Positions 30,575 to 36,933 of a stretch of 61,436 nucleotides of DNA are shown one piece after another. The stretch lies in UHGV virus genome UHGV-0213688; one strand, written 5' to 3'. Position numbers and translations under genes: made by a program. Below the pieces are notes generated by a model that saw only the letters and a list, made by a program, of their open reading frames with translations, did no database searches and was not told the origin of the DNA. Source of the stretch: a virus. How positions within the stretch are numbered: the first letter of the stretch is position 1; each line of letters begins with the position of its first letter.

Positions 30575-30953
30575 AATACTCCCGGGCCAGCCCTCCTACT
30601 GGTCCGGTTAACCGCGCAATAAAGTCCTCCTCCAATATCTCGCGATTAAGCGCATTATAGCTTGATATACCTTCCGATCACAATAGTTCAATAAATTTCC
30701 CTCAAAAGCACTTGACTTCTCATTTTTGATCTGCATCCGTTCAGGTTTATGAAAATTTATAGAGTTTATATAATGACCATAAACTCGTCAAATAATACCA
30801 ATAGGTACTATATACATTAATAATAAATCCTTATTTTATATATATTTATAGTTATTATTTACTATTAGTTTAATTATATTTGTTTTAGTTAGTTGACTGA
30901 AAGTTTATAAGTTTATAGGGAGCGAGCCAACCGAGATTTCATAAAATGCATAG

Positions 30954-31217
30954 TATAGTGGTATAGTGGCATTCACTATGTTTCACTACTACTACTAATT
31001 CTTTGTTTGAAAACGGGGTAATAAGGGGAAAACCGTAAACTTATAAACTTTGCTCTGTGTCAAAAATAAAATTAGTGAATAGTGGAATAGTGGTTTATAG
31101 TGGCAAACTTTTATAAAGCCAGTAACGGCGCACTATACACATTTTGCCCACTATGTACGCCACTAAGCACTATATTAAAACAATCCTTGCAAATAGCTAA
31201 TGTCTGTTTTATAGTGG
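30954..31217. repeat. iteron array: at least 6 direct and 4 inverted copies of core ATAGTGG
   Basis: direct copies at 30954, 30962, 31078, 31086, 31097, 31210; inverted CACTAT at 30974, 31131, 31149, 31169; flanked by inverted AAGTTTATAAGTTTA (30900 and 31035) in a 640-bp AT-rich ORF-free region. Confidence 0.6.
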
Positions 31218-31242
31218 CTTCACCAGTTGACTAGGAGGATTT

Positions 31243-31986
31243 ATGAGCGAAGAAACTATCACATCCGCACCATTAACATCTAAAACTGTGGTTAAAGATC
31301 TGTGTTTTGCTGCGTGGGTTGTGCAAGCTTGCTCGCAGTTGCGCGGTGCGCCAACCAAATCACAGGCGCTTGCTATGGTGGAGGATTACTTCAACGAAGA
31401 TGTGGAACAGCCTGTTAAAAAAGCTGTAAGACAAAAAGCGGGAAAGCTGGATGCAGAACGGGCGGCTTTCCTTGCATGGGTTAGCGATAAGCTGGGACAT
31501 GAACTGGATGCCAAAGAGCTTCGCAGCTATACGGGCAAATTCAATTACCACATGGGCAAGGGTAACGACCCATATGAAGAAGCATTTAAGGTAAAAGAAG
31601 ATAAGGGTAAGGCGGGGCGCAAGGAAAACGTCGAGCTTAAAGCATGGATAGAGCGCCAAGCCTTGCTCAAAGGGGATCCTCTGACAGATAAGGAAGCGGA
31701 TAAATTGACACATCGCTGGTACAGGATGCGCCGGAGCGGCGATGTTCGGGACTGGGATAATCGCGGTCGCTGGCCTACGTGTTCCCTGCACCATTACGAA
31801 ACCGCTACCGCTATCCGTGTCAAGCTTGGCGCTCATTGGGTAGACCTTGCACTATACAGGGATGCTGAACAGGCTAAAAATATTCTTCCGAACATTGATA
31901 ATTGGCTTATTAGCTTAAGACAGGGAAGGGAGCCGCAGGACGTTATGTTAGAAGTTAGTAACCATATTATCACAACTCCGCAATAA
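31243..31986 (+). CDS. hypothetical protein, first gene after iteron region
   Basis: 247 aa; AGGAGG RBS 5 nt upstream. Confidence 0.55.
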   Translation: MSEETITSAPLTSKTVVKDLCFAAWVVQACSQLRGAPTKSQALAMVEDYFNEDVEQPVKKAVRQKAGKLDAERAAFLAWVSDKLGHELDAKELRSYTGKFNYHMGKGNDPYEEAFKVKEDKGKAGRKENVELKAWIERQALLKGDPLTDKEADKLTHRWYRMRRSGDVRDWDNRGRWPTCSLHHYETATAIRVKLGAHWVDLALYRDAEQAKNILPNIDNWLISLRQGREPQDVMLEVSNHIITTPQ

Positions 31987-32261: not shown

Positions 32262-34604
32262 ATGGAACTGTTTCCCGCTGAAATTAAAGCTTTCCCACAA
32301 TGGGCGGTCGCCGATGCGGATAAAAAGCCTCTTGTATGGGACAACGATATTGGACGTTTGATGGCGGCGGACGTTACCGATCCGGATATGCTTATGACGT
32401 TTGAAGCTGCCAAAGGTTGCGCCGCGCATTTCAACAAACCTTATATTGGCTTTGTGCTTACTGCACAAGACCCGTTCACCTGCATCGATCTGGATGTGAA
32501 GAACGCGACCAATGAACCTGATCCCAAGAAGCACACGACGCCGGAACAGTTGCGCCGCTTCGAACAGATCATGACTGCGTTCGATACTTACACCGAAGTA
32601 AGTCGCTCAGGTTTGGGTGTCCACCTGTGGTTAAGAGGTAACATCGGTAAAGGTCGCCGACGTGATGGTGTCGAGGTTTATAGTCAGGAGCGTTTTATTA
32701 TCTGCACGGGCAATCCTGTTTATAACAAACCAGTTGCAGAACGTGATCATTATCTTACTATGCTTGTGAATGAAATTGATCTTCAGCGCAAGACATATGA
32801 AATTGAACTGGTAGAAAAAGATCCGGTAGAAGACGATGCGACTATTCACCAGCGAGCACTTGAAGCGGACAACGGGGATAAGTATGCACGCCTATTCAAT
32901 GGCGAATGGGTTGAAATGGGATTCCCTTCCCAGTCTGAAGCAGACCTTGCCCTTATTTCTATGTATGCATTCTACACAGAAAGTAATGAGCAATGCCGTC
33001 GTCTGTTCCGTTACAGTGCACTGGGCAAACGTGAGAAGGCTAATAAGAACAATGTTCATATTGACCGTTGTTTGCGCATGTGCCGCGGTCGTATGGAGCG
33101 TGAGCGCATTGCCCAGGAAAACGTAGCGGCGCTGGCGCGGGATTACGCTGCTCGTATGCAAGCCGCACACAGTGCAATGCAGCAGGTAACGGAAATGCCT
33201 GTGATTGTCGAAACAACACAGGGGCAGACAGTAGTTGCGGAAAGTACATCCATTGATGCAACAGCTATTGACTGGCCACCGGGACTCGCTGGGGAGCTTG
33301 CGAAGTACATCTACAAAGCATCCGTCCGACCAGTAAAAGAAATCTCTATTGTGACTGCGCTCGGCTTTATGGCTGGGGTATGCGGGAAAGTATGGCAGAT
33401 TCCGCAATCCGGTCTTAATGGTTATTTTGTCTTAATTGCTCGTTCTGGTGTTGGTAAAGAGACGTTGAACAGTGGGCTGTCTAATATAGTTAGCCAGATT
33501 CAGGACCAGTTTCCGCAGATTCATAGCTTTGTATCTTTTGACAGATGCGCTTCTGGATCTGCACTGCGTAAATCTTTTGCAGACAAACAATCTTTTATCA
33601 ACTTGAACGGTGAGTTTGGTAAGATTATCAAAGCAATGGCAACGGCTCCAGCAGGATCGCCGATGCAAAGTTTCAAGAATGACCTTACCGATGTTTATCA
33701 AAAGTCCGGTCAGATGTCTATCGTTGGTGGTATGTCTTATTCTGATAAGGCTAATAATACTGAAGCTCAACAAGGTGTGGCATATAGCATCATGGGCGAA
33801 ACGACACCGGATACGTTCTTTGAAGCATTAACCCGTGAAATGATGGAGGACGGATTCTTATCCCGTTTCCATGTTGTACGCTATGAAGGTGATCGACCAC
33901 CTTTAAACAAAAATCAGCAGACTACAATGGATCAGCATTTGAAGGACATGGTGTGCCATCTTGTTAACCACACTTTAGTAACAATGGCAAAGCATCAGAG
34001 TATTGAAGTACAGTTTAGCCCGGATGCGGAAACATTATGCGATCAGTTTAACGATGAATGTGATCGCAATATTAACGCAACCAAAGACGAAGCGATCCGT
34101 CAGCCGTGGAACCGTGCTCACCTGAAGGTCTTGCGACTTTCTGCCTTGTTAGCTGTGGGTGAGAACTGGATCAATCCGGTGGTACAAACCTATCATGTGC
34201 AATGGGCTTTGGACTTCGTGCGTCATGGGCAGGATATTATTATGAAGGAATGGCATAGCGGAGGCATTGGGACTAATGATGAAGCTCGTATCCGTACTAT
34301 GTGTCAGGTCTGTGTGAATTATCTAACTAAAGACTGGGTGAAAGTTAAACGTGTAGATTTGCGCAAAGAAGGTATTATCACGCGGGGTGATATTACTACG
34401 CGTCTTGCAAGTAAGTCCGCGTTTAAAAACTATCATCACGGATTATCCGCTGCAATCGAGTCTACAATCAAGGAGATGGTTGCTATGGGTGCACTTGTTC
34501 CGGTAACACGGGAGGAGACTATTAAACTGGGATTTACTGGGGCAGCTTGGCGCATTACGCAAGATGTTGAAGGAATTATGGCAAACTTAGGTGAAGAGGA
34601 ATAA
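32262..34604 (+). CDS. DNA primase/helicase (PrimPol-type primase domain + P-loop helicase domain)
   Basis: 780 aa; N-terminal DLD and SRSGLGVHLW motifs; central phage/plasmid primase-like region; Walker-A-like ARSGVGKET. Confidence 0.7.
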   Translation: MELFPAEIKAFPQWAVADADKKPLVWDNDIGRLMAADVTDPDMLMTFEAAKGCAAHFNKPYIGFVLTAQDPFTCIDLDVKNATNEPDPKKHTTPEQLRRFEQIMTAFDTYTEVSRSGLGVHLWLRGNIGKGRRRDGVEVYSQERFIICTGNPVYNKPVAERDHYLTMLVNEIDLQRKTYEIELVEKDPVEDDATIHQRALEADNGDKYARLFNGEWVEMGFPSQSEADLALISMYAFYTESNEQCRRLFRYSALGKREKANKNNVHIDRCLRMCRGRMERERIAQENVAALARDYAARMQAAHSAMQQVTEMPVIVETTQGQTVVAESTSIDATAIDWPPGLAGELAKYIYKASVRPVKEISIVTALGFMAGVCGKVWQIPQSGLNGYFVLIARSGVGKETLNSGLSNIVSQIQDQFPQIHSFVSFDRCASGSALRKSFADKQSFINLNGEFGKIIKAMATAPAGSPMQSFKNDLTDVYQKSGQMSIVGGMSYSDKANNTEAQQGVAYSIMGETTPDTFFEALTREMMEDGFLSRFHVVRYEGDRPPLNKNQQTTMDQHLKDMVCHLVNHTLVTMAKHQSIEVQFSPDAETLCDQFNDECDRNINATKDEAIRQPWNRAHLKVLRLSALLAVGENWINPVVQTYHVQWALDFVRHGQDIIMKEWHSGGIGTNDEARIRTMCQVCVNYLTKDWVKVKRVDLRKEGIITRGDITTRLASKSAFKNYHHGLSAAIESTIKEMVAMGALVPVTREETIKLGFTGAAWRITQDVEGIMANLGEEE

Positions 34605-34606
34605 AT

Positions 34607-34630
34607 AAAGGGCCTTTCGGCCCTTTATTG
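34607..34630. terminator. bidirectional rho-independent terminator
   Basis: AAAGGGCC-TTTC-GGCCCTTT with T/A runs both sides, between convergent genes. Confidence 0.7.
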
Positions 34631-34855
34631 TTAGTTGAGATAGTAATCGTCGACGTCGTACCTTGCCATAATTTCGGATGCTTCCGCTGCACTTTCCGCT
34701 TCTTCATAAGCTTGCTCAGCGTCGTCATAAGTACCGTAATACATCCAACCTTCACCCATTGGACGGATATATGCTTCAAATTTGCCAGTACGCGGGTGAC
34801 GTACAACTTTATAATCCGCGCCCATTGTGCTATATACTTTATTCAGCATGACCAT
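34631..34855 (-). CDS. hypothetical protein, lone minus-strand gene in plus-strand block
   Basis: 74 aa; GGAGG 8 nt upstream of ATG 34855. Confidence 0.55.
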   Translation of the reverse strand: MVMLNKVYSTMGADYKVVRHPRTGKFEAYIRPMGEGWMYYGTYDDAEQAYEEAESAAEASEIMARYDVDDYYLN

Positions 34856-35013
34856 TTTGTAATCCTCCGTTTTGTTTATGAGTTAATAGTACAGTTAGAC
34901 GGATCAGATGTAAAGGCAAATCGTGCTATTTCATAGATGCATTTCAAGTCTAAAGTTGTTGCACACATCGTAAGTCCTGCTATACTTACAGCATAAAGTT
35001 AACGGAGGGAACA

Positions 35014-35088
35014 ATGTTCGAGCTTTTAAAATTATTTGCGGGTGCTATTTTCGTAGCTGGTTATTTCTGGTTTATGTACATTCTGTGA
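35014..35088 (+). CDS. tiny hydrophobic peptide (24 aa)
   Basis: ATG 35014 with GGAGGG 5 nt upstream; MFELLKLFAGAIFVAGYFWFMYIL; stop overlaps RBS of next gene. Confidence 0.3.
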   Translation: MFELLKLFAGAIFVAGYFWFMYIL

Positions 35089-35096
35089 GGTGTAAG

Positions 35097-35312
35097 ATGA
35101 AAATTGAATTAGAAGTTATTGAAGGTCAGGCTCCGGTTGATGAATTTGGTCACATTGACAATGATGTAATTATTATCGGATTAGACGGTTCTTTACATGC
35201 TGTAGGTAATCAAAATGTAATGGGAGGTCTTTGTAATTGTTGCAGTGATAATTTTCCAAAACACAATCGATATATTCTCATCCCTAAAAATATCAAAGAC
35301 TGTGAGGAATGA
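35097..35312 (+). CDS. hypothetical protein (AT-rich island)
   Basis: ORF 35085..35312; ATG 35097 after GAGGTG. Confidence 0.5.
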   Translation: MKIELEVIEGQAPVDEFGHIDNDVIIIGLDGSLHAVGNQNVMGGLCNCCSDNFPKHNRYILIPKNIKDCEE

Positions 35313-35315
35313 AAA

Positions 35316-35549
35316 ATGAGTAAATTAAAAACAACTATCTACACTAAAAAAGCTATTGAAGGCTTTATGCAACATTTGTCTGAATTGGGTCTAAGCGTCT
35401 ATGGACCTTGTATGAAGGAAGAGATTGAGTATCCTTCCCTTATGGATTACAATGTTGACGATATTATTAATCGGCGCAAATGTATTCAGGATGGGAGCTT
35501 ATTCTATATAGATGATATTACATTAATTGATCACGAGGATGACAAATGA
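35316..35549 (+). CDS. hypothetical protein (AT-rich island)
   Basis: 77 aa; GAGGA RBS. Confidence 0.5.
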   Translation: MSKLKTTIYTKKAIEGFMQHLSELGLSVYGPCMKEEIEYPSLMDYNVDDIINRRKCIQDGSLFYIDDITLIDHEDDK

Positions 35550-35737
35550 ATCTTAAACTATTAAAGAATTTATATTGGACAGTTTGGACTATCCTTACAG
35601 TTATTCTTATCGTATATGTTAATAAATCAACTGTCCTGGGAATACTTTATGTAATAGCATATGGTATTAGCTGTACTATTGGTTCTGCTGCTTTAGTTGT
35701 TATTTCTTATGAGGGTGATAAAGGGGAAGAAAAATGA
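35546..35737 (+). CDS. small membrane protein (AT-rich island)
   Basis: 63 aa with two hydrophobic helices; overlapping stop/start. Confidence 0.5.
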   Translation: MNLKLLKNLYWTVWTILTVILIVYVNKSTVLGILYVIAYGISCTIGSAALVVISYEGDKGEEK

Positions 35738-36048
35738 GTATTGTAAACACTATCTGTGAGGCAATTTATGCGGAGCTTATCCGTATTGAAACTAATCTGC
35801 ATAAAGAAGGACGAAAAGAAATCAAAAGAATTCTTGTAGATTTCCCTACAGCAATGGATATTCGAAGAGATGGTCATTTATACTATTGGGGTAGTGAATA
35901 CATCGATGAATGCGACGGAGGGCATTGTATCCACATGGCTATTATGAATTACCCTATTGTTCCAACCGATCAAGTAACAGGTTTTGAGTTGATGTTAAAT
36001 GATGGTACTTTAGCACCAAAAGCGGCAAAGGGAACCGCGCAAAATTGA
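35734..36048 (+). CDS. hypothetical protein (AT-rich island)
   Basis: 104 aa; AAGGGG RBS. Confidence 0.5.
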   Translation: MSIVNTICEAIYAELIRIETNLHKEGRKEIKRILVDFPTAMDIRRDGHLYYWGSEYIDECDGGHCIHMAIMNYPIVPTDQVTGFELMLNDGTLAPKAAKGTAQN

Positions 36049-36357
36049 AGCTTGCCATTCAAGACTGCATCCTTTAAGATAACCACAGTTAACGAGGTTT
36101 AACAATTTAACAACATTAACTTAGTGAACGATGCTTAACTCAAGCCCTTGAAAGCGGTAGCTGTACCTCCTTACAGCAACTACTTTCGCTGGGCTTCCTG
36201 GAGCGGACAGGGTAAACCCGCAACTTACTGAACGATGTGAACGATGTTTAACGCGACGGCGCCAGATGTACCAAACCGTCACCAGCCTTTGGCGAGGCTG
36301 TACAAGTAGGCCAGGATAGACGAAGACGGCAGTCAAAGTAAGCTATCCGACAATCAA

Positions 36358-36393
36358 GAGAGCCCAGGAATCCTTATGCCTGGGCTTTTTTGT
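36358..36393 (+). terminator. rho-independent terminator
   Basis: AGCCCAGG-aatccttatg-CCTGGGCT followed by TTTTTTGTT. Confidence 0.7.
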
Positions 36394-36465
36394 TCCTTGT
36401 GATCAACAGAACTTCAATATAAAATTCTTTATGAAGTGTTTTACATTAAAGTTATGGAGACAAAC

Positions 36466-36933
36466 ATGGCAGTAAATATTCGCGCTAAAGGTCAACGCGG
36501 TGAGCGGGAAGTATGCGATTTCTTTAATGCAATTTATGCTGAAATCTACGCAGAGCTGGGGATGCAGTTACCGGAAAAACCTATTGCTCAGCGTAACCAG
36601 AATCAAAGTGCGGTCGGTGGTTGTGACATTAGCAATACGTGCCACCATGCGGTTGAAGTAAAAAACCACGCTACGCCACAAGTAAACACATGGTGGAAGC
36701 AGACTGTTCAATCGGCTAAAGAGCTTGGAAGATATCCAGTTCTGATGTATAAAATAGAACGTAAAGGATGGAAGGTTGTTCTACCGCTCAATCCAGTCGT
36801 CTTTAGCAATGGTGAGTGGCAGTGGTATGAAGTTAAAGACTCCATCCGCGCGGAAATTAGTCTTGATGATTACCGCATTATTTTTAAAGCGCACGCGAAA
36901 CAATGGTTAATTGATCGCGGTTCAATTCAATAA
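36466..36933 (+). CDS. putative PD-(D/E)xK-type nuclease (possible resolvase)
   Basis: ORF 36436..36933; preferred ATG 36466 after GGAG; GGCDIS...HHAVEVKNH fits a D...E-x-K arrangement. Confidence 0.4.
   Translation: MAVNIRAKGQRGEREVCDFFNAIYAEIYAELGMQLPEKPIAQRNQNQSAVGGCDISNTCHHAVEVKNHATPQVNTWWKQTVQSAKELGRYPVLMYKIERKGWKVVLPLNPVVFSNGEWQWYEVKDSIRAEISLDDYRIIFKAHAKQWLIDRGSIQ

What the first reader, a model, noticed from the sequence alone, without database searches (positions are those of the whole stretch)
34880..36400. AT-rich island of small genes, a 24-aa hydrophobic peptide ORF and a 300-nt ORF-free terminator-capped segment
Genes 35097-36048 are markedly more AT-rich than their neighbours and encode small proteins, one of them membrane-bound, which is typical of morons. 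They are preceded by a 24-codon hydrophobic ORF (35014-35088) with a strong RBS whose stop overlaps the next RBS. Downstream, 36050-36357 has no plus-strand ORF, contains three copies of TGAACGATG, and ends in a strong terminator. That segment could encode a small RNA or be remnant DNA.
Basis: partly seen in the sequence, partly recalled or inferred. Interest (0 to 1): 0.5.

Follow-up and report, generated by a model that had tools for sequence, protein, structure and literature searches.

The report
Unannotated structured RNA gene in Seuratvirus
The "ORF-free" 300 bases are most likely a previously unannotated gene for a highly structured ~305-nt non-coding RNA, conserved in Seurat-like coliphages. 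It sits at the end of a swappable cassette of small accessory genes that is headed by a conserved 24-residue membrane peptide.

Summary
The window is a Seuratvirus (Queuovirinae, Seurat/CAjan-like E. coli phage).

**AT-rich island.** 35097-35737 has 32% GC against 44.6% for the window. It is a hypervariable cassette slot between the primase and the RusA-like gene, and relatives carry at least 8 different first genes there.

**24-codon ORF (35014-35088).** It is a real gene, conserved at the protein level.

**The 36050-36393 segment.** This is the main result. It has its own sigma-70 promoter (36052-36080) and an intrinsic terminator (36356-36391).
- It folds into at least 6 helices. On the main alignment, eight base pairs show compensatory double changes, against 0.9 in shuffles. 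All seven one-sided changes are G-U wobbles, which work only on the + strand.
- It contains no conserved ORF.
- It is better conserved than most flanking protein genes.
- It matches no Rfam family, tRNA, tmRNA, E. coli sequence or bacterial genome.

**Conserved features of the RNA.**
- Nine U(U/G)AAC units spaced about 9 nt apart.
- A long hairpin with an apical CCUCCU loop, identical to the 16S anti-Shine-Dalgarno sequence.
- A very well conserved 3' half.

Providencia phages PSTCR7 and PSTCR4 carry a syntenic RNA of similar architecture.

Function is unknown. My best guess is a trans-acting regulatory or sequestering RNA. No expression data exist.

The parts
34604..34629 (.). Bidirectional intrinsic terminator between the primase gene (+) and the 74-aa ORF (-)
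   Evidence: Terminator scan. Annotated as a terminator on both strands in phage Seurat.
34631..34855 (-). Conserved 74-aa ORF (phrog_22269, unknown function; weak AP2-like hit), divergent from the island operon
   Evidence: Present in all relatives.
34978..34986 (+). Putative extended -10 promoter element TGcTATACT of the island operon, with a weak -35 TTGCAC at 34959-34964
   Evidence: Read from the sequence. STP-SP5 has TGCTATAAT at the same place. Inference only; not found by the scan.
35014..35088 (+). 24-aa hydrophobic peptide gene (SD GGAGGG at 35004-35009). Its stop overlaps the SD of whichever cassette gene follows.
   Evidence: Intact and 24 codons long in every Seuratvirus locus that carries it. 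Most codon changes are synonymous. STP-SP5 has 10 conservative replacements and the same hydropathy. The other frames contain stops. Annotated only in CSP1.
35097..35312 (+). Cassette gene 1 (71 aa, no family)
   Evidence: Shared with SLUR75, KS_A3 and phiG7. The first 105 nt are 96% identical to Salmonella myophages.
35316..35549 (+). Cassette gene 2 (77 aa, phrog_35106)
   Evidence: 82-84% DNA identity to Nonagvirus JenK1/JenP1 genes located in the equivalent primase-RusA island.
35546..35737 (+). Cassette gene 3 (63 aa, predicted membrane protein)
   Evidence: Hydropathy. No DNA match in 50,697 phage records.
35734..36048 (+). Conserved 104-aa ORF (phrog_25787, unknown fold). It is the 3' anchor of the cassette slot.
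   Evidence: AlphaFold model has pLDDT 81 with no PDB fold match. The ends are invariant while the middle diverges.
36052..36080 (+). Sigma-70 promoter of the RNA gene: TTGCCA, 17-nt spacer, TAAGAT
   Evidence: Promoter scan. STP-SP5 has TTGACA-17-TAATAT at the aligned position. PSTCR7 has TTGCGT-17-TATATT.
36087..36393 (+). Structured non-coding RNA of about 305 nt (ends inferred from the promoter and terminator)
36089..36140 (+). 5' single-stranded array of six U(U/G)AAC units, spaced 8-10 nt apart
   Evidence: Densest cluster in the window: 6 in 60 nt against at most 4 in shuffles. STP-SP5 lacks one unit (8-nt gap). PSTCR7 has GUGAA-type units here, including an identical 13-mer UAACUUAGUGAAC.
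36143..36195 (+). Helix P2: 20-bp imperfect hairpin with apical loop CCUCCU (36166-36171). ACCUCCUUA equals the 16S rRNA 3' end.
   Evidence: Six pairs with compensatory double changes and three wobble changes. The loop is invariant. The 16S 3' end was read. PSTCR7/PSTCR4 have an analogous hairpin with a CUCC loop.
36203..36221 (+). Helix P3a (GCGG/CCGC) with loop ACAGG(G/A)UAAAC
   Evidence: One compensatory pair, C-G to U-A. In PSTCR7 the next hairpin loop also carries GGGUAA.
36222..36254 (+). Internal single-stranded linker with three more units (UGAACGAUG twice, then UUUAAC). It repeats the 16-22-nt box AACUUAsUGAACGAUGyUUAAC found at 36118-36139.
   Evidence: Copy number varies: Dru_SM1 has one extra unit. 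A metagenome variant carries a roughly 90-nt insertion here.
36255..36300 (+). Helices P4 (GACGG/CCGUC, 16-nt loop) and P5 (CAGCCUU/GAGGCUG). Loop sequences CGCCA and UGGCG are complementary, so a kissing contact is possible.
   Evidence: Nearly invariant. P5 shows A-U to G-U and G-C to G-U changes. The kissing contact is inference from the sequence, with no covariation.
36314..36348 (+). Helix P6 (GGAUAG/CUAUCC) enclosing the mini-hairpin P7 (36325-36327 with 36332-36334)
   Evidence: P7: A-U to U-A in PLYYY01. P6: VogelGryff-type phages have a hairpin of the same shape with different stem letters (AAAUAAGG/CCUUAUUU), and show A-U to G-C covariation among themselves.
36356..36391 (+). Intrinsic terminator: 13-bp stem, 10-nt loop, U6 tail
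   Evidence: In STP-SP5 the stem is conserved while the loop differs.
36397..36425 (+). Separate promoter-like site (TTGTGA-17-TAAAAT) for the downstream RusA-like/dUTPase operon (RusA-like gene 36466-36933)
   Evidence: Conserved block in STP-SP5 and PSTCR7. A promoter is annotated at the equivalent position in SA80RD.

Best explanation
**What is shown or strongly supported.** 36087-36393 (+) is a free-standing gene for a structured non-coding RNA of about 305 nt. The host sigma-70 RNA polymerase would transcribe it from its own promoter (36052-36080) and stop at its own intrinsic terminator (36356-36391).

**Architecture.**
- A single-stranded 5' array of U(U/G)AAC units.
- A long hairpin, P2, that presents a CCUCCU loop.
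- A short hairpin, P3a.
- A second single-stranded repeat linker.
- A very conserved 3' block: P4, P5, and P6 enclosing P7.
- The terminator.

**Genomic setting.** The RNA gene is the fixed 3' end of a recombination-prone slot. The slot reads: promoter, conserved 24-aa membrane peptide, swappable AT-rich accessory genes, conserved 104-aa gene, RNA.

**Mechanism (inferred, about 0.3 for this specific part).** The RNA acts in trans early in infection.
- The exposed anti-Shine-Dalgarno-like loop pairs with GGAGG-type ribosome-binding sites of selected host or phage mRNAs and blocks initiation.
- The nine single-stranded U(U/G)AAC(G)AUG units bind or titrate an RNA-binding protein.
- The conserved 3' block provides a folded core, protein contacts and stability.

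The confidence given (0.72) is for 'a genuine, separately transcribed, trans-acting structured non-coding RNA gene', not for the specific mechanism.
For: **Promoter and terminator.** Both are found at conserved positions. The promoter is closer to consensus in the 79%-identical relative STP-SP5.

**Folding.** The + strand folds better than shuffles (z = -3.4). The - strand does not (z = -1.3).

**Covariation on 14 distinct sequences.**
- 8 pairs with changes on both sides, against 0.9 in 500 shuffles (0 of 500 reach 8).
- 0-2 such pairs in slid controls.
- 99.5% of cells paired.
- All 7 one-sided changes are G-U wobbles, which are valid only on the + strand.

**Independent support for P6.** VogelGryff-type phages have the same hairpin shape with different stem letters, plus their own A-U to G-C change.

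**No coding potential.** 10 indels separate the window from STP-SP5, and 9 are not multiples of 3. The minus-strand ORF that some records annotate loses its frame.

**Conservation.**
- 98-99.8% identity in about 30 Seuratviruses, including those whose primase is only 77% identical.
- Against STP-SP5, the RNA 3' half is 88% identical and the 5' half 73%. Primase, the 74-aa, 24-aa and 104-aa genes and dUTPase are 57-68%.

**Syntenic RNA in Providencia phages.** PSTCR7/PSTCR4 carry a structured RNA of about 360 nt (z = -5.9) with the same order of elements. It is the best non-self hit of a covariance model, at the right place and on the right strand. Its own hairpin shows covariation.

**Separate downstream promoter.** A conserved promoter follows the terminator, so the RNA is its own transcription unit.
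Against: - There are no expression data of any kind; no transcriptome of a Seuratvirus was found.
- Almost all covariation comes from one divergent genome (STP-SP5) plus a few single events. P4 and the terminator stem never vary.
- No target was found. Complementarity to the phage genome is no longer than in shuffles (12 nt). There is nothing notable against the rrn operon and no E. coli match.
- A 5-nt CCUCC loop is a weak specificity determinant.
- The repeat units could act at the DNA level.
- The covariance-model hit in PSTCR7 is not significant on its own (15 bits, E = 0.87).
Confidence: 0.72

Rival explanations
1. Cis-acting leader, attenuator or antitermination element. Transcription from 36052-36080 passes through the structured leader. 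A regulated decision at the terminator (36356-36391) then controls the downstream RusA-like/dUTPase replication-recombination operon. This would resemble a riboswitch, or processive antitermination of the put or boxA type.
For: - The layout is promoter, 270-nt structured RNA, terminator, then same-strand genes.
- UCCUGG (36196-36201) could pair either with CCAGGA at 36311-36316 or with the identical CCAGGA in the 5' arm of the terminator (read from the sequence).
- The 5' end contains UUUAACAAUUUA, identical to the 3' part of rrn boxA and the leader just after it.
Against: - A separate promoter-like site directly after the terminator is conserved in Seurat-type, STP-SP5 and PSTCR7 genomes.
- In VogelGryff-type phages the terminator has a different sequence lacking CCAGGA. 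A homing endonuclease gene sits between the RNA and the RusA-like gene, yet the RNA is kept.
- The boxA resemblance lacks the GCUC half and is not significant against shuffles (score 26 against mean 24, max 34).
- No Rfam riboswitch or leader matches.
Confidence: 0.12
2. DNA-level element. The directly repeated T[TG]AAC units, spaced 9-10 bp apart next to the primase gene, would be iterons of a replication origin, priming sites, or an operator array. Under this reading the hairpins are incidental or act in single-stranded DNA.
For: - The repeat cluster is unique in the window and statistically unusual.
- Copy number changes by whole units.
- The adjacent primase has an NrS-1-type helix-bundle domain. 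NrS-1 primase-polymerase recognises GTGA/GTGG templates (PMC8718748), and several units read GTGAAC.
Against: - The wobble-only one-sided changes and the compensatory changes are strand-specific and extend over 250 nt outside the repeats.
- All units are in one orientation on the transcribed strand, bracketed by a promoter and a terminator.
- The segment has 48% GC and no AT-rich unwinding element.
- A much better origin candidate lies at 30575-31242. It is AT-rich, carries at least 7 (A/T)ATAGTGG repeats in both orientations and a perfect 16-nt inverted repeat, and GC skew changes sign there.
- Only 2 of the 9 units contain GTGA.
Confidence: 0.07
3. Remnant or decaying DNA, or a 3' UTR without function, left between the cassette and the RusA-like gene.
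For: It lies next to a recombination-prone slot and to homing-endonuclease insertions.
Against: - It is among the best conserved stretches of the neighbourhood.
- Base pairs are kept through compensatory change.
- It is retained in every Seuratvirus examined, and in 8 metagenome contigs and 3 viral contigs.
Confidence: 0.03
4. It encodes a small protein. The candidates are the minus-strand ORF 36121-36336, which is annotated as a CDS in KS_A3 and VogelGryff and labelled 'sulfatase-like protein' in CSP1C, or the plus-strand 21- and 27-aa ORFs.
For: Some GenBank records annotate a CDS here.
Against: - Frame-breaking indels in STP-SP5. The minus ORF there is 48 aa, has a different start, and shares only a 9-residue stretch.
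- No promoter or RBS support.
- The substitution pattern follows RNA pairing rather than codons.
Confidence: 0.02

Closest known systems
Large multi-hairpin regulatory RNAs and sRNAs that use C-rich or anti-SD-like apical loops to mask ribosome-binding sites (S. aureus RNAIII; enterobacterial CyaR). Recalled from memory, not verified here.
   Same: - Own promoter and Rho-independent terminator.
- Several hairpins.
- An exposed CCUCC-type loop complementary to Shine-Dalgarno sequences.
   Different: - No sequence or covariance-model similarity; Rfam finds nothing.
- Phage-encoded.
- About 305 nt, with two arrays of 9-nt-spaced repeats and a near-invariant 3' core.
- No target identified.
Protein-sponge RNAs (CsrB/CsrC, RsmY/RsmZ)
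   Same: Many copies of a short single-stranded motif spread along a structured RNA, with variable copy number.
   Different: - The motif is U(U/G)AAC(G)AUG, not GGA.
- There are only 4 GGA triplets, and one of them alternates with GGG among phages.
- No Rfam hit.
Phage regulatory RNAs (P1/P7 c4 and P4 CI antisense RNAs, lambda OOP, HK022 put, T4 stable RNAs C/D)
   Same: Small stable RNAs encoded by phages near early or replication genes. The c4/CI RNAs act on ribosome-binding regions.
   Different: - Three to four times longer.
- No cis-antisense target, and no complementarity to the phage genome beyond chance.
- Not matched by the Rfam models of those families.
Syntenic RNA of Providencia phages PSTCR7/PSTCR4 (Craquatrovirus), also unannotated
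   Same: - Same position, between the small reverse gene after the primase and the RusA-like gene.
- Own promoter and terminator.
- 5' GUGAA-type units spaced 9 nt apart, including an identical 13-mer.
- A long hairpin with a CUCC loop, followed by a hairpin with a GGGUAA loop.
   Different: - About 360 nt.
- The rest of the sequence cannot be aligned.
- No gene cassette between the promoter and the RNA.
- Homology is not statistically established (E = 0.87).

Membership tests
Free-standing bacterial/phage non-coding RNA gene (generic kind) | Own promoter and own intrinsic terminator | tested here: met
   TTGCCA-17-TAAGAT at 36052-36080, conserved and closer to consensus in STP-SP5. Terminator at 36356-36391.
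Free-standing bacterial/phage non-coding RNA gene (generic kind) | Secondary structure maintained by compensatory change, specific to one strand | tested here: met
   8 double-change pairs against 0.9 in shuffles (0 of 500). Slid controls give 0-2. All 7 one-sided changes are G-U on the + strand. P6 is supported independently.
Free-standing bacterial/phage non-coding RNA gene (generic kind) | No conserved reading frame | tested here: met
   9 of 10 indels against STP-SP5 are not multiples of 3. ORFs on both strands are not conserved.
Free-standing bacterial/phage non-coding RNA gene (generic kind) | A stable transcript is actually made | not testable with these tools
   No transcriptome of a Seuratvirus was found in the literature library.
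Any described RNA family (Rfam 15, 4227 models, including CyaR, CsrB, c4, put, 6S, riboswitches) | Covariance-model score at or above the gathering threshold | tested here: not met
   0 hits in the window at gathering thresholds. At E <= 10 only terminator-like noise appears. 0 hits in the PSTCR7, L021 and VogelGryff loci.
tRNA / tmRNA | Cloverleaf or tmRNA detected by ARAGORN | tested here: not met
   0 genes in the window.
boxA (NusB/NusE) antitermination site | Match to GCUCUUUAACAA, including the GCUC half, soon after the promoter | tested here: not met
   Only UUUAACAA(UUUA) is shared. The alignment score against the rrnB operon is within the range of shuffles.
Transcription-attenuating riboswitch or leader | Conserved, mutually exclusive antiterminator and terminator pairings, with downstream genes dependent on read-through | tested here: inconclusive
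   A possible UCCUGG/CCAGGA alternative exists in Seurat-type and STP-SP5 genomes but is absent in VogelGryff-type. A separate downstream promoter is conserved.
CsrB-type CsrA sponge | Many GGA motifs in loops or linkers | tested here: not met
   Four GGA triplets in 305 nt. The one in the P3a loop alternates between GGG and GGA among phages.
Replication origin with iterons | Direct repeats plus an adjacent AT-rich unwinding region, with conservation independent of strand | tested here: not met
   Repeats are present. However, GC is 0.48, the covariation is strand-specific, and a better candidate lies at 30575-31242.
Type III antitoxin RNA (ToxI-like) | Tandem repeats of about 34-36 nt next to an endoribonuclease toxin gene | tested here: not met
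   The units are about 9 nt. No toxin-like gene lies nearby.
Moron (for genes 35097-35737) | Horizontally acquired extra gene with atypical composition | tested here: met
   GC is 0.32 against 0.446. Relatives carry at least 8 alternative first genes. Matches extend to Nonagvirus and Salmonella myophages.
Moron (for genes 35097-35737) | Each unit has its own promoter and terminator, in a temperate phage or prophage | tested here: not met
   The genes are tightly packed or overlapping in one operon, behind one promoter and the 24-aa ORF. Seuratviruses are virulent phages (established knowledge; taxonomy).
Small membrane peptide gene (24-aa ORF) | Frame, length and hydrophobicity kept under purifying selection | tested here: met
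   15 distinct DNA versions, all 24 codons long. Codon changes are mostly synonymous (for example 6 synonymous to 1 non-synonymous, and 6 to 2). STP-SP5 has 26 nt differences, yet all 10 replacements are hydrophobic-for-hydrophobic.

The most novel reading that the evidence does not exclude
A new class of phage host-takeover RNA. It would be an abundant early transcript of about 305 nt that displays the ribosome's own anti-Shine-Dalgarno sequence on a long hairpin and carries two arrays of U(U/G)AAC(G)AUG protein-binding units. It would work as a combined mRNA-masking and protein-titrating ribonucleoprotein that reprogrammes host translation, or disarms an RNA-targeting defence. The architecture would be shared by Seuratvirus and Craquatrovirus phages.
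Probability: 0.2. Interest if true: 0.8.

Novelty: new member of a known kind. Interest (0 to 1): 0.6.

Why it matters
Structured RNAs of several hundred nucleotides are rare and poorly understood in virulent phages, and genome annotation is protein-centred.

Here a segment is left blank in most of the Seuratvirus records examined, or carries spurious CDS calls such as a "sulfatase-like protein". It turns out to be one of the best conserved elements of the early/replication region. It has real covariation and distinctive motifs.

The carriers include members of the BASEL collection: GottfriedDienst, KurtStettler, SeppeHuegi, WildeMaa and VogelGryff. These grow on E. coli K-12, so transcript mapping, deletion and target capture are immediately feasible.

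The neighbouring 24-aa peptide also matters. It heads a swappable gene slot, so any incoming cassette gene is placed directly after its stop codon and the overlapping SD. This is a tidy example of how phages keep a fixed expression socket for accessory genes.

Tried and rejected
**Known RNA classes.** Rfam at gathering and at permissive thresholds, on the window and on relatives, gave nothing but terminator noise. ARAGORN found nothing.

**Host similarity.**
- blastn of the RNA against 5,426 E. coli genomes: no match.
- Two exact-pattern scans of 185,579 bacterial genomes: none, and one chance hit inside an Anaerolineales coding sequence.

**More divergent homologues.**
- Viral and metagenome scans returned only Seuratviruses at least 96% identical.
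- A pattern built on the 13-mer shared with PSTCR7 hit only unrelated coding sequences.
- The VogelGryff-type 3' domain has no further relatives.
- Nonagvirus JenK1, Klebsiella K9PH25C2 and Pseudomonas JG054 have no comparable gap.

**rrn/16S mimicry.** The boxA-like 12-mer is not significant. The conserved loops have no notable complementarity to rRNA.

**Antisense target in the phage.** The longest complementarity is 12 nt, the same as for shuffled RNA. An RNAduplex scan of the whole window timed out. A search for extended complements of the CCUCC loop found nothing above chance.

**Partner protein.**
- The co-conserved 104-aa protein has no Pfam family.
- Only 5 homologues were found among 5.8 billion proteins.
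- It gives a confident model with no PDB fold match.
- It is absent next to the PSTCR7 RNA.

**Long-range helices.** RNAalifold predicted 36131-36138 pairing with 36340-36348, and 36196-36201 pairing with 36311-36316. Both compete with hairpin P6, which the VogelGryff-type comparison favours. I left them unresolved.

**Literature.** No paper describes an RNA in Seuratvirus or Queuovirinae.
Full report
**Context**

The window is a Seuratvirus genome (Queuovirinae; Seurat/CAjan-like siphophage of E. coli). The region 34600-36700 matches 37 phage records, almost all Escherichia Seuratviruses, at 95-99% identity (taxonomy).

The local gene order is conserved across the subfamily:
- primase-helicase, 32262-34604. 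It has an NrS-1-like helix-bundle domain plus DUF3987.
- a bidirectional terminator.
- a small reverse gene, 34631-34855.
- a run of small forward genes.
- a RusA-like/PDDEXK nuclease, 36466-36933.
- dUTPase.

**Checking the observation**

- **Composition.** The island is 32-34% GC against 44.6% for the window. This is within the lowest 0.3-0.6% of equal-sized windows.
- **Small ORFs.** The four ORFs and the hydrophobic 63-aa product are as described.
- **24-codon ORF.** It has a GGAGGG ribosome-binding site. Its TGA stop is embedded in the next gene's Shine-Dalgarno sequence.
- **TGAACGATG.** It occurs three times and nowhere else in the 61 kb. Chance expectation is 0.49.
- **Terminator.** It is a 13-bp stem with a 10-nt loop and a U6 tail. 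The consensus scan missed it only because of the loop length.

**The island is a cassette slot, not a set of classical morons**

Across 29 related loci the 24-aa ORF is always present and always 24 codons long. The gene that follows it differs, and I counted at least eight unrelated first genes. Cassettes range from one to three genes.

In this window the cassette is a unique mosaic:
- Gene 1 is shared with three Seuratviruses. Its first 105 nt are 96% identical to Salmonella myophages.
- Gene 2 is 82-84% identical to genes in the equivalent island of Nonagvirus phages.
- Gene 3 is a 63-aa membrane protein with no DNA match in 50,697 phage records.

None of the products has a Pfam family.

The slot is bounded on the 3' side by a conserved 104-aa gene (phrog_25787). 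Its first 17 and last 12 residues are invariant, while the middle drops to 54% identity. This pattern suggests that recombination junctions lie at its ends. That protein gave a confident AlphaFold model (pLDDT 81) without any PDB fold match.

However, they form one operon in a virulent phage, behind a shared promoter and leader peptide.

**The 24-aa ORF is a real gene**

Among 15 distinct DNA versions, most codon changes are synonymous (for example 6 synonymous to 1 non-synonymous). In Salmonella phage STP-SP5 the ORF differs at 26 of 75 nt yet keeps its length. All ten replacements are hydrophobic-for-hydrophobic: MFEFVKIFASVIFIALYFWLMYWV against MFELLKLFAGAIFVAGYFWFMYIL. The other frames contain stops. 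Only one of the records examined (CSP1) annotates it.

Its position suggests that it doubles as a translational coupling device for whatever cassette is installed. The stop overlaps the SD of every alternative downstream gene (inference).

**The ORF-free segment is a structured RNA gene**

Several independent lines agree.

1. **Transcription signals.** A sigma-70 promoter TTGCCA-17-TAAGAT lies 4 nt after the 104-aa stop codon. At the aligned position STP-SP5 has TTGACA-17-TAATAT, which is closer to consensus. The terminator closes the unit. A separate conserved promoter-like site follows for the RusA-like operon.

2. **Thermodynamics.** The + strand folds 3.4 SD better than dinucleotide shuffles. 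The - strand folds only 1.3 SD better.

3. **Covariation.** On 14 distinct sequences, a 53-pair model has 99.5% of cells paired.
   - Eight pairs show changes on both sides, against 0.9 in 500 column shuffles (none reaches 8). Registers slid by 1 to 3 columns give 0-2.
   - All seven one-sided changes are G-C or A-U to G-U. These would be C-A mismatches on the other strand.
   - Six of the double changes are in the long hairpin P2. One is in P3a. One is in the mini-hairpin P7, as an independent event in PLYYY01.

4. **A third lineage.** VogelGryff-type phages carry a homing endonuclease just downstream and a diverged 3' domain.
   - That domain folds into the same shape: a single-stranded lead, hairpin P6 with an inner mini-hairpin, a linker, then the terminator.
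   - Its stem letters are different (AAAUAAGG/CCUUAUUU instead of GGAUAG/CUAUCC).
   - Within that lineage P6 shows a further A-U to G-C exchange.
   - The swap looks like a co-conversion tract from an unsampled donor (inference).

5. **No coding potential.** The window and STP-SP5 differ by 47 substitutions and 10 indels, 9 of which are not multiples of three. The minus-strand ORF that some GenBank records annotate is not conserved.

6. **Conservation.**
   - The segment is 98-99.8% identical in about 30 Seuratviruses, even where the primase protein is only 77% identical.
   - Against STP-SP5 the RNA's 3' half is 88% identical and its 5' half 73%.
   - The primase end, the 74-aa, 24-aa and 104-aa genes and dUTPase are 57-68% identical.

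**Anatomy (window coordinates)**

- 36089-36140: six U(U/G)AAC units spaced 8-10 nt apart. This is the densest such cluster in the window, 6 in 60 nt against at most 4 in shuffles.
- 36143-36195: hairpin P2, with apical loop CCUCCU. The 9-mer ACCUCCUUA equals the 3' end of E. coli 16S rRNA, which was read.
- 36203-36221: hairpin P3a, with loop ACAGG(G/A)UAAAC.
- 36222-36254: three more units. Together with 36118-36139 they form a duplicated 16-22-nt box, AACUUAsUGAACGAUGyUUAAC.
- 36255-36300: P4 and P5. They are almost invariant, and their loops are mutually complementary (CGCCA and UGGCG). This is an inferred contact only.
- 36314-36348: P6 enclosing P7.
- 36356-36391: the terminator.

The repeat linkers behave as modular spacers:
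- STP-SP5 lacks one unit.
- Dru_SM1 has an extra one.
- One metagenome variant has a roughly 90-nt structured insertion between two units.

**Relatives elsewhere**

By sequence, the RNA is confined to Seuratvirus in every collection searched: phage records, 3 viral contigs, 8 metagenome contigs and no bacterial genome.

Providencia phages PSTCR7 and PSTCR4 (Craquatrovirus; primase 52% identical) have an unannotated segment in the same position. It has these features:
- its own promoter and terminator.
- about 360 nt, with z = -5.9.
- 5' GUGAA-type units spaced 9 nt apart, including the identical 13-mer UAACUUAGUGAAC.
- a long hairpin with an apical CUCC loop.
- a following hairpin whose loop carries GGGUAA.

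A covariance model of the Seuratvirus 5' half finds exactly this site as its best non-self hit in 109 kb. It is full length and in register with the CUCC loop, but scores only 15 bits (E = 0.87). PSTCR4 and PSTCR7 differ by a compensatory U-A to C-G change and by wobble switches in that hairpin.

I regard this as a probable distant homologue or, at the least, a convergent analogue. Nonagvirus, a Klebsiella Queuovirinae phage and Pseudomonas Nipunavirus have no comparable gap.

**What it is not**

- It matches no Rfam family at gathering or permissive thresholds, and no tRNA or tmRNA.
- It has no similarity or long complementarity to E. coli genomes.
- Its complementarity to the phage's own genome does not exceed chance, and there is none of note to rRNA.
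- The resemblance of the 5' end to rrn boxA (UUUAACAAUUUA) is real, but it lacks the GCUC half and is not significant.
- GGA motifs are too few and too variable for a CsrB-like sponge.

**Mechanism**

*Shown:* a conserved, strand-specific, multi-helix structure bracketed by transcription signals.

*Inferred:* a trans-acting RNA made by host RNA polymerase.
- Its invariant CCUCC-type loop is conserved as CUCC even in the Providencia phages, whose stem sequence is different. This loop is complementary to GGAGG ribosome-binding sites and could mask selected mRNAs. C-rich loops of RNAIII-type regulators do this (from memory).
- The nine single-stranded U(U/G)AAC(G)AUG units look like serial binding sites for a protein.
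- The near-invariant 3' block implies constraints beyond pairing, such as tertiary fold or protein contacts.

I give about 0.72 to [quoted passage not shown] and about 0.3 to the specific anti-SD plus sponge mechanism.

*Rivals:*
- Cis-acting leader or antitermination element, 0.12. It is weakened by the conserved downstream promoter and by the VogelGryff-type arrangement.
- DNA-level iteron, origin or priming element, 0.07. It is weakened by the strand-specific covariation and by a far better origin candidate at 30575-31242.
- Remnant DNA, 0.03.
- Small protein, 0.02.

**Novelty and verdict**

No paper in the searchable library mentions an RNA in these phages. Public annotations leave the segment blank or place spurious CDSs on it.

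It is a new family within a known kind, phage-encoded non-coding RNAs. It is unusually large and well supported for a virulent coliphage, and it is directly testable in BASEL phages.

The main caveats are the lack of any expression data and the narrow phylogenetic base of the covariation.

Noticed in passing
window 30575-31242: A 670-nt ORF-free, very AT-rich region (GC about 0.31) upstream of gene 31243-31986 and the primase.
- It holds at least 7 copies of (A/T)ATAGTGG in both orientations.
- It has a perfect 16-nt inverted repeat, AAAGTTTATAAGTTTA / TAAACTTATAAACTTT (30900-30915 and 31036-31051).
- It includes an extreme AT stretch at 30790-30900.
- GC skew changes sign here.

The repeats contain GTGG, an efficient recognition motif of the NrS-1 primase-polymerase (PMC8718748). 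This is a likely replication origin or regulatory hub.
   Followed up: partly
L031:9690-10052 (Providencia phage PSTCR7) and L054:341-706 (PSTCR4): An unannotated, highly structured segment of about 360 nt (z = -5.9) with its own promoter and terminator. It lies in the position syntenic to the Seuratvirus RNA. It has a CUCC-loop hairpin and 5' GUGAA repeats.
   Followed up: partly
L005:2894-3406 (VogelGryff), L006:2903-3415 (Dru_SM1), L056:1941-2423 (SA80RD): An HNH homing endonuclease gene is inserted directly after the RNA gene in a subset of Seuratviruses. In these genomes the RNA's 3' domain, from about window position 36305, is replaced by a diverged but iso-structural version. This looks like a co-conversion tract from an unsampled donor lineage.
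   Followed up: partly
L021:1135-1240 (metagenome contig ERZ1026901 NODE-154): A Seuratvirus variant in which a roughly 90-nt GC-rich structured insertion replaces the tandem UGAACGAUG units. It is still flanked by UUAACGAUG and UUAAUGAUG.
   Followed up: no
window 36121-36336 (-): A minus-strand ORF lying over the RNA is annotated as a CDS in KS_A3 and VogelGryff. In CSP1C a feature labelled 'sulfatase-like protein' lies under the match. These are probably mis-annotations, because the frame is not conserved in STP-SP5.
   Followed up: yes
window 35734-36048: In the 104-aa protein (phrog_25787), the N-terminal 17 and C-terminal 12 residues are invariant while the middle diverges to 54%. This suggests the gene ends serve as recombination junctions, or overlap signals upstream of the RNA promoter. 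The confident AlphaFold model has no PDB fold match.
   Followed up: partly
window 32262-34604: Seuratviruses carry two primase alleles that are only about 77% identical in protein, while the RNA region 1.5 kb downstream stays about 99% identical. This indicates a mosaic genome with a recombination boundary between the two.
   Followed up: no
window 34992-35013 and 36087-36110: The 5' end of the RNA (AGUUAACGAGGUUUAACAAU) resembles the translation-initiation region of the 24-aa ORF (AGUUAACGGAGGGAACAAUG). STP-SP5 shows a parallel resemblance. This may be a vestigial or mimicked ribosome-binding region. It was seen by eye only.
   Followed up: no
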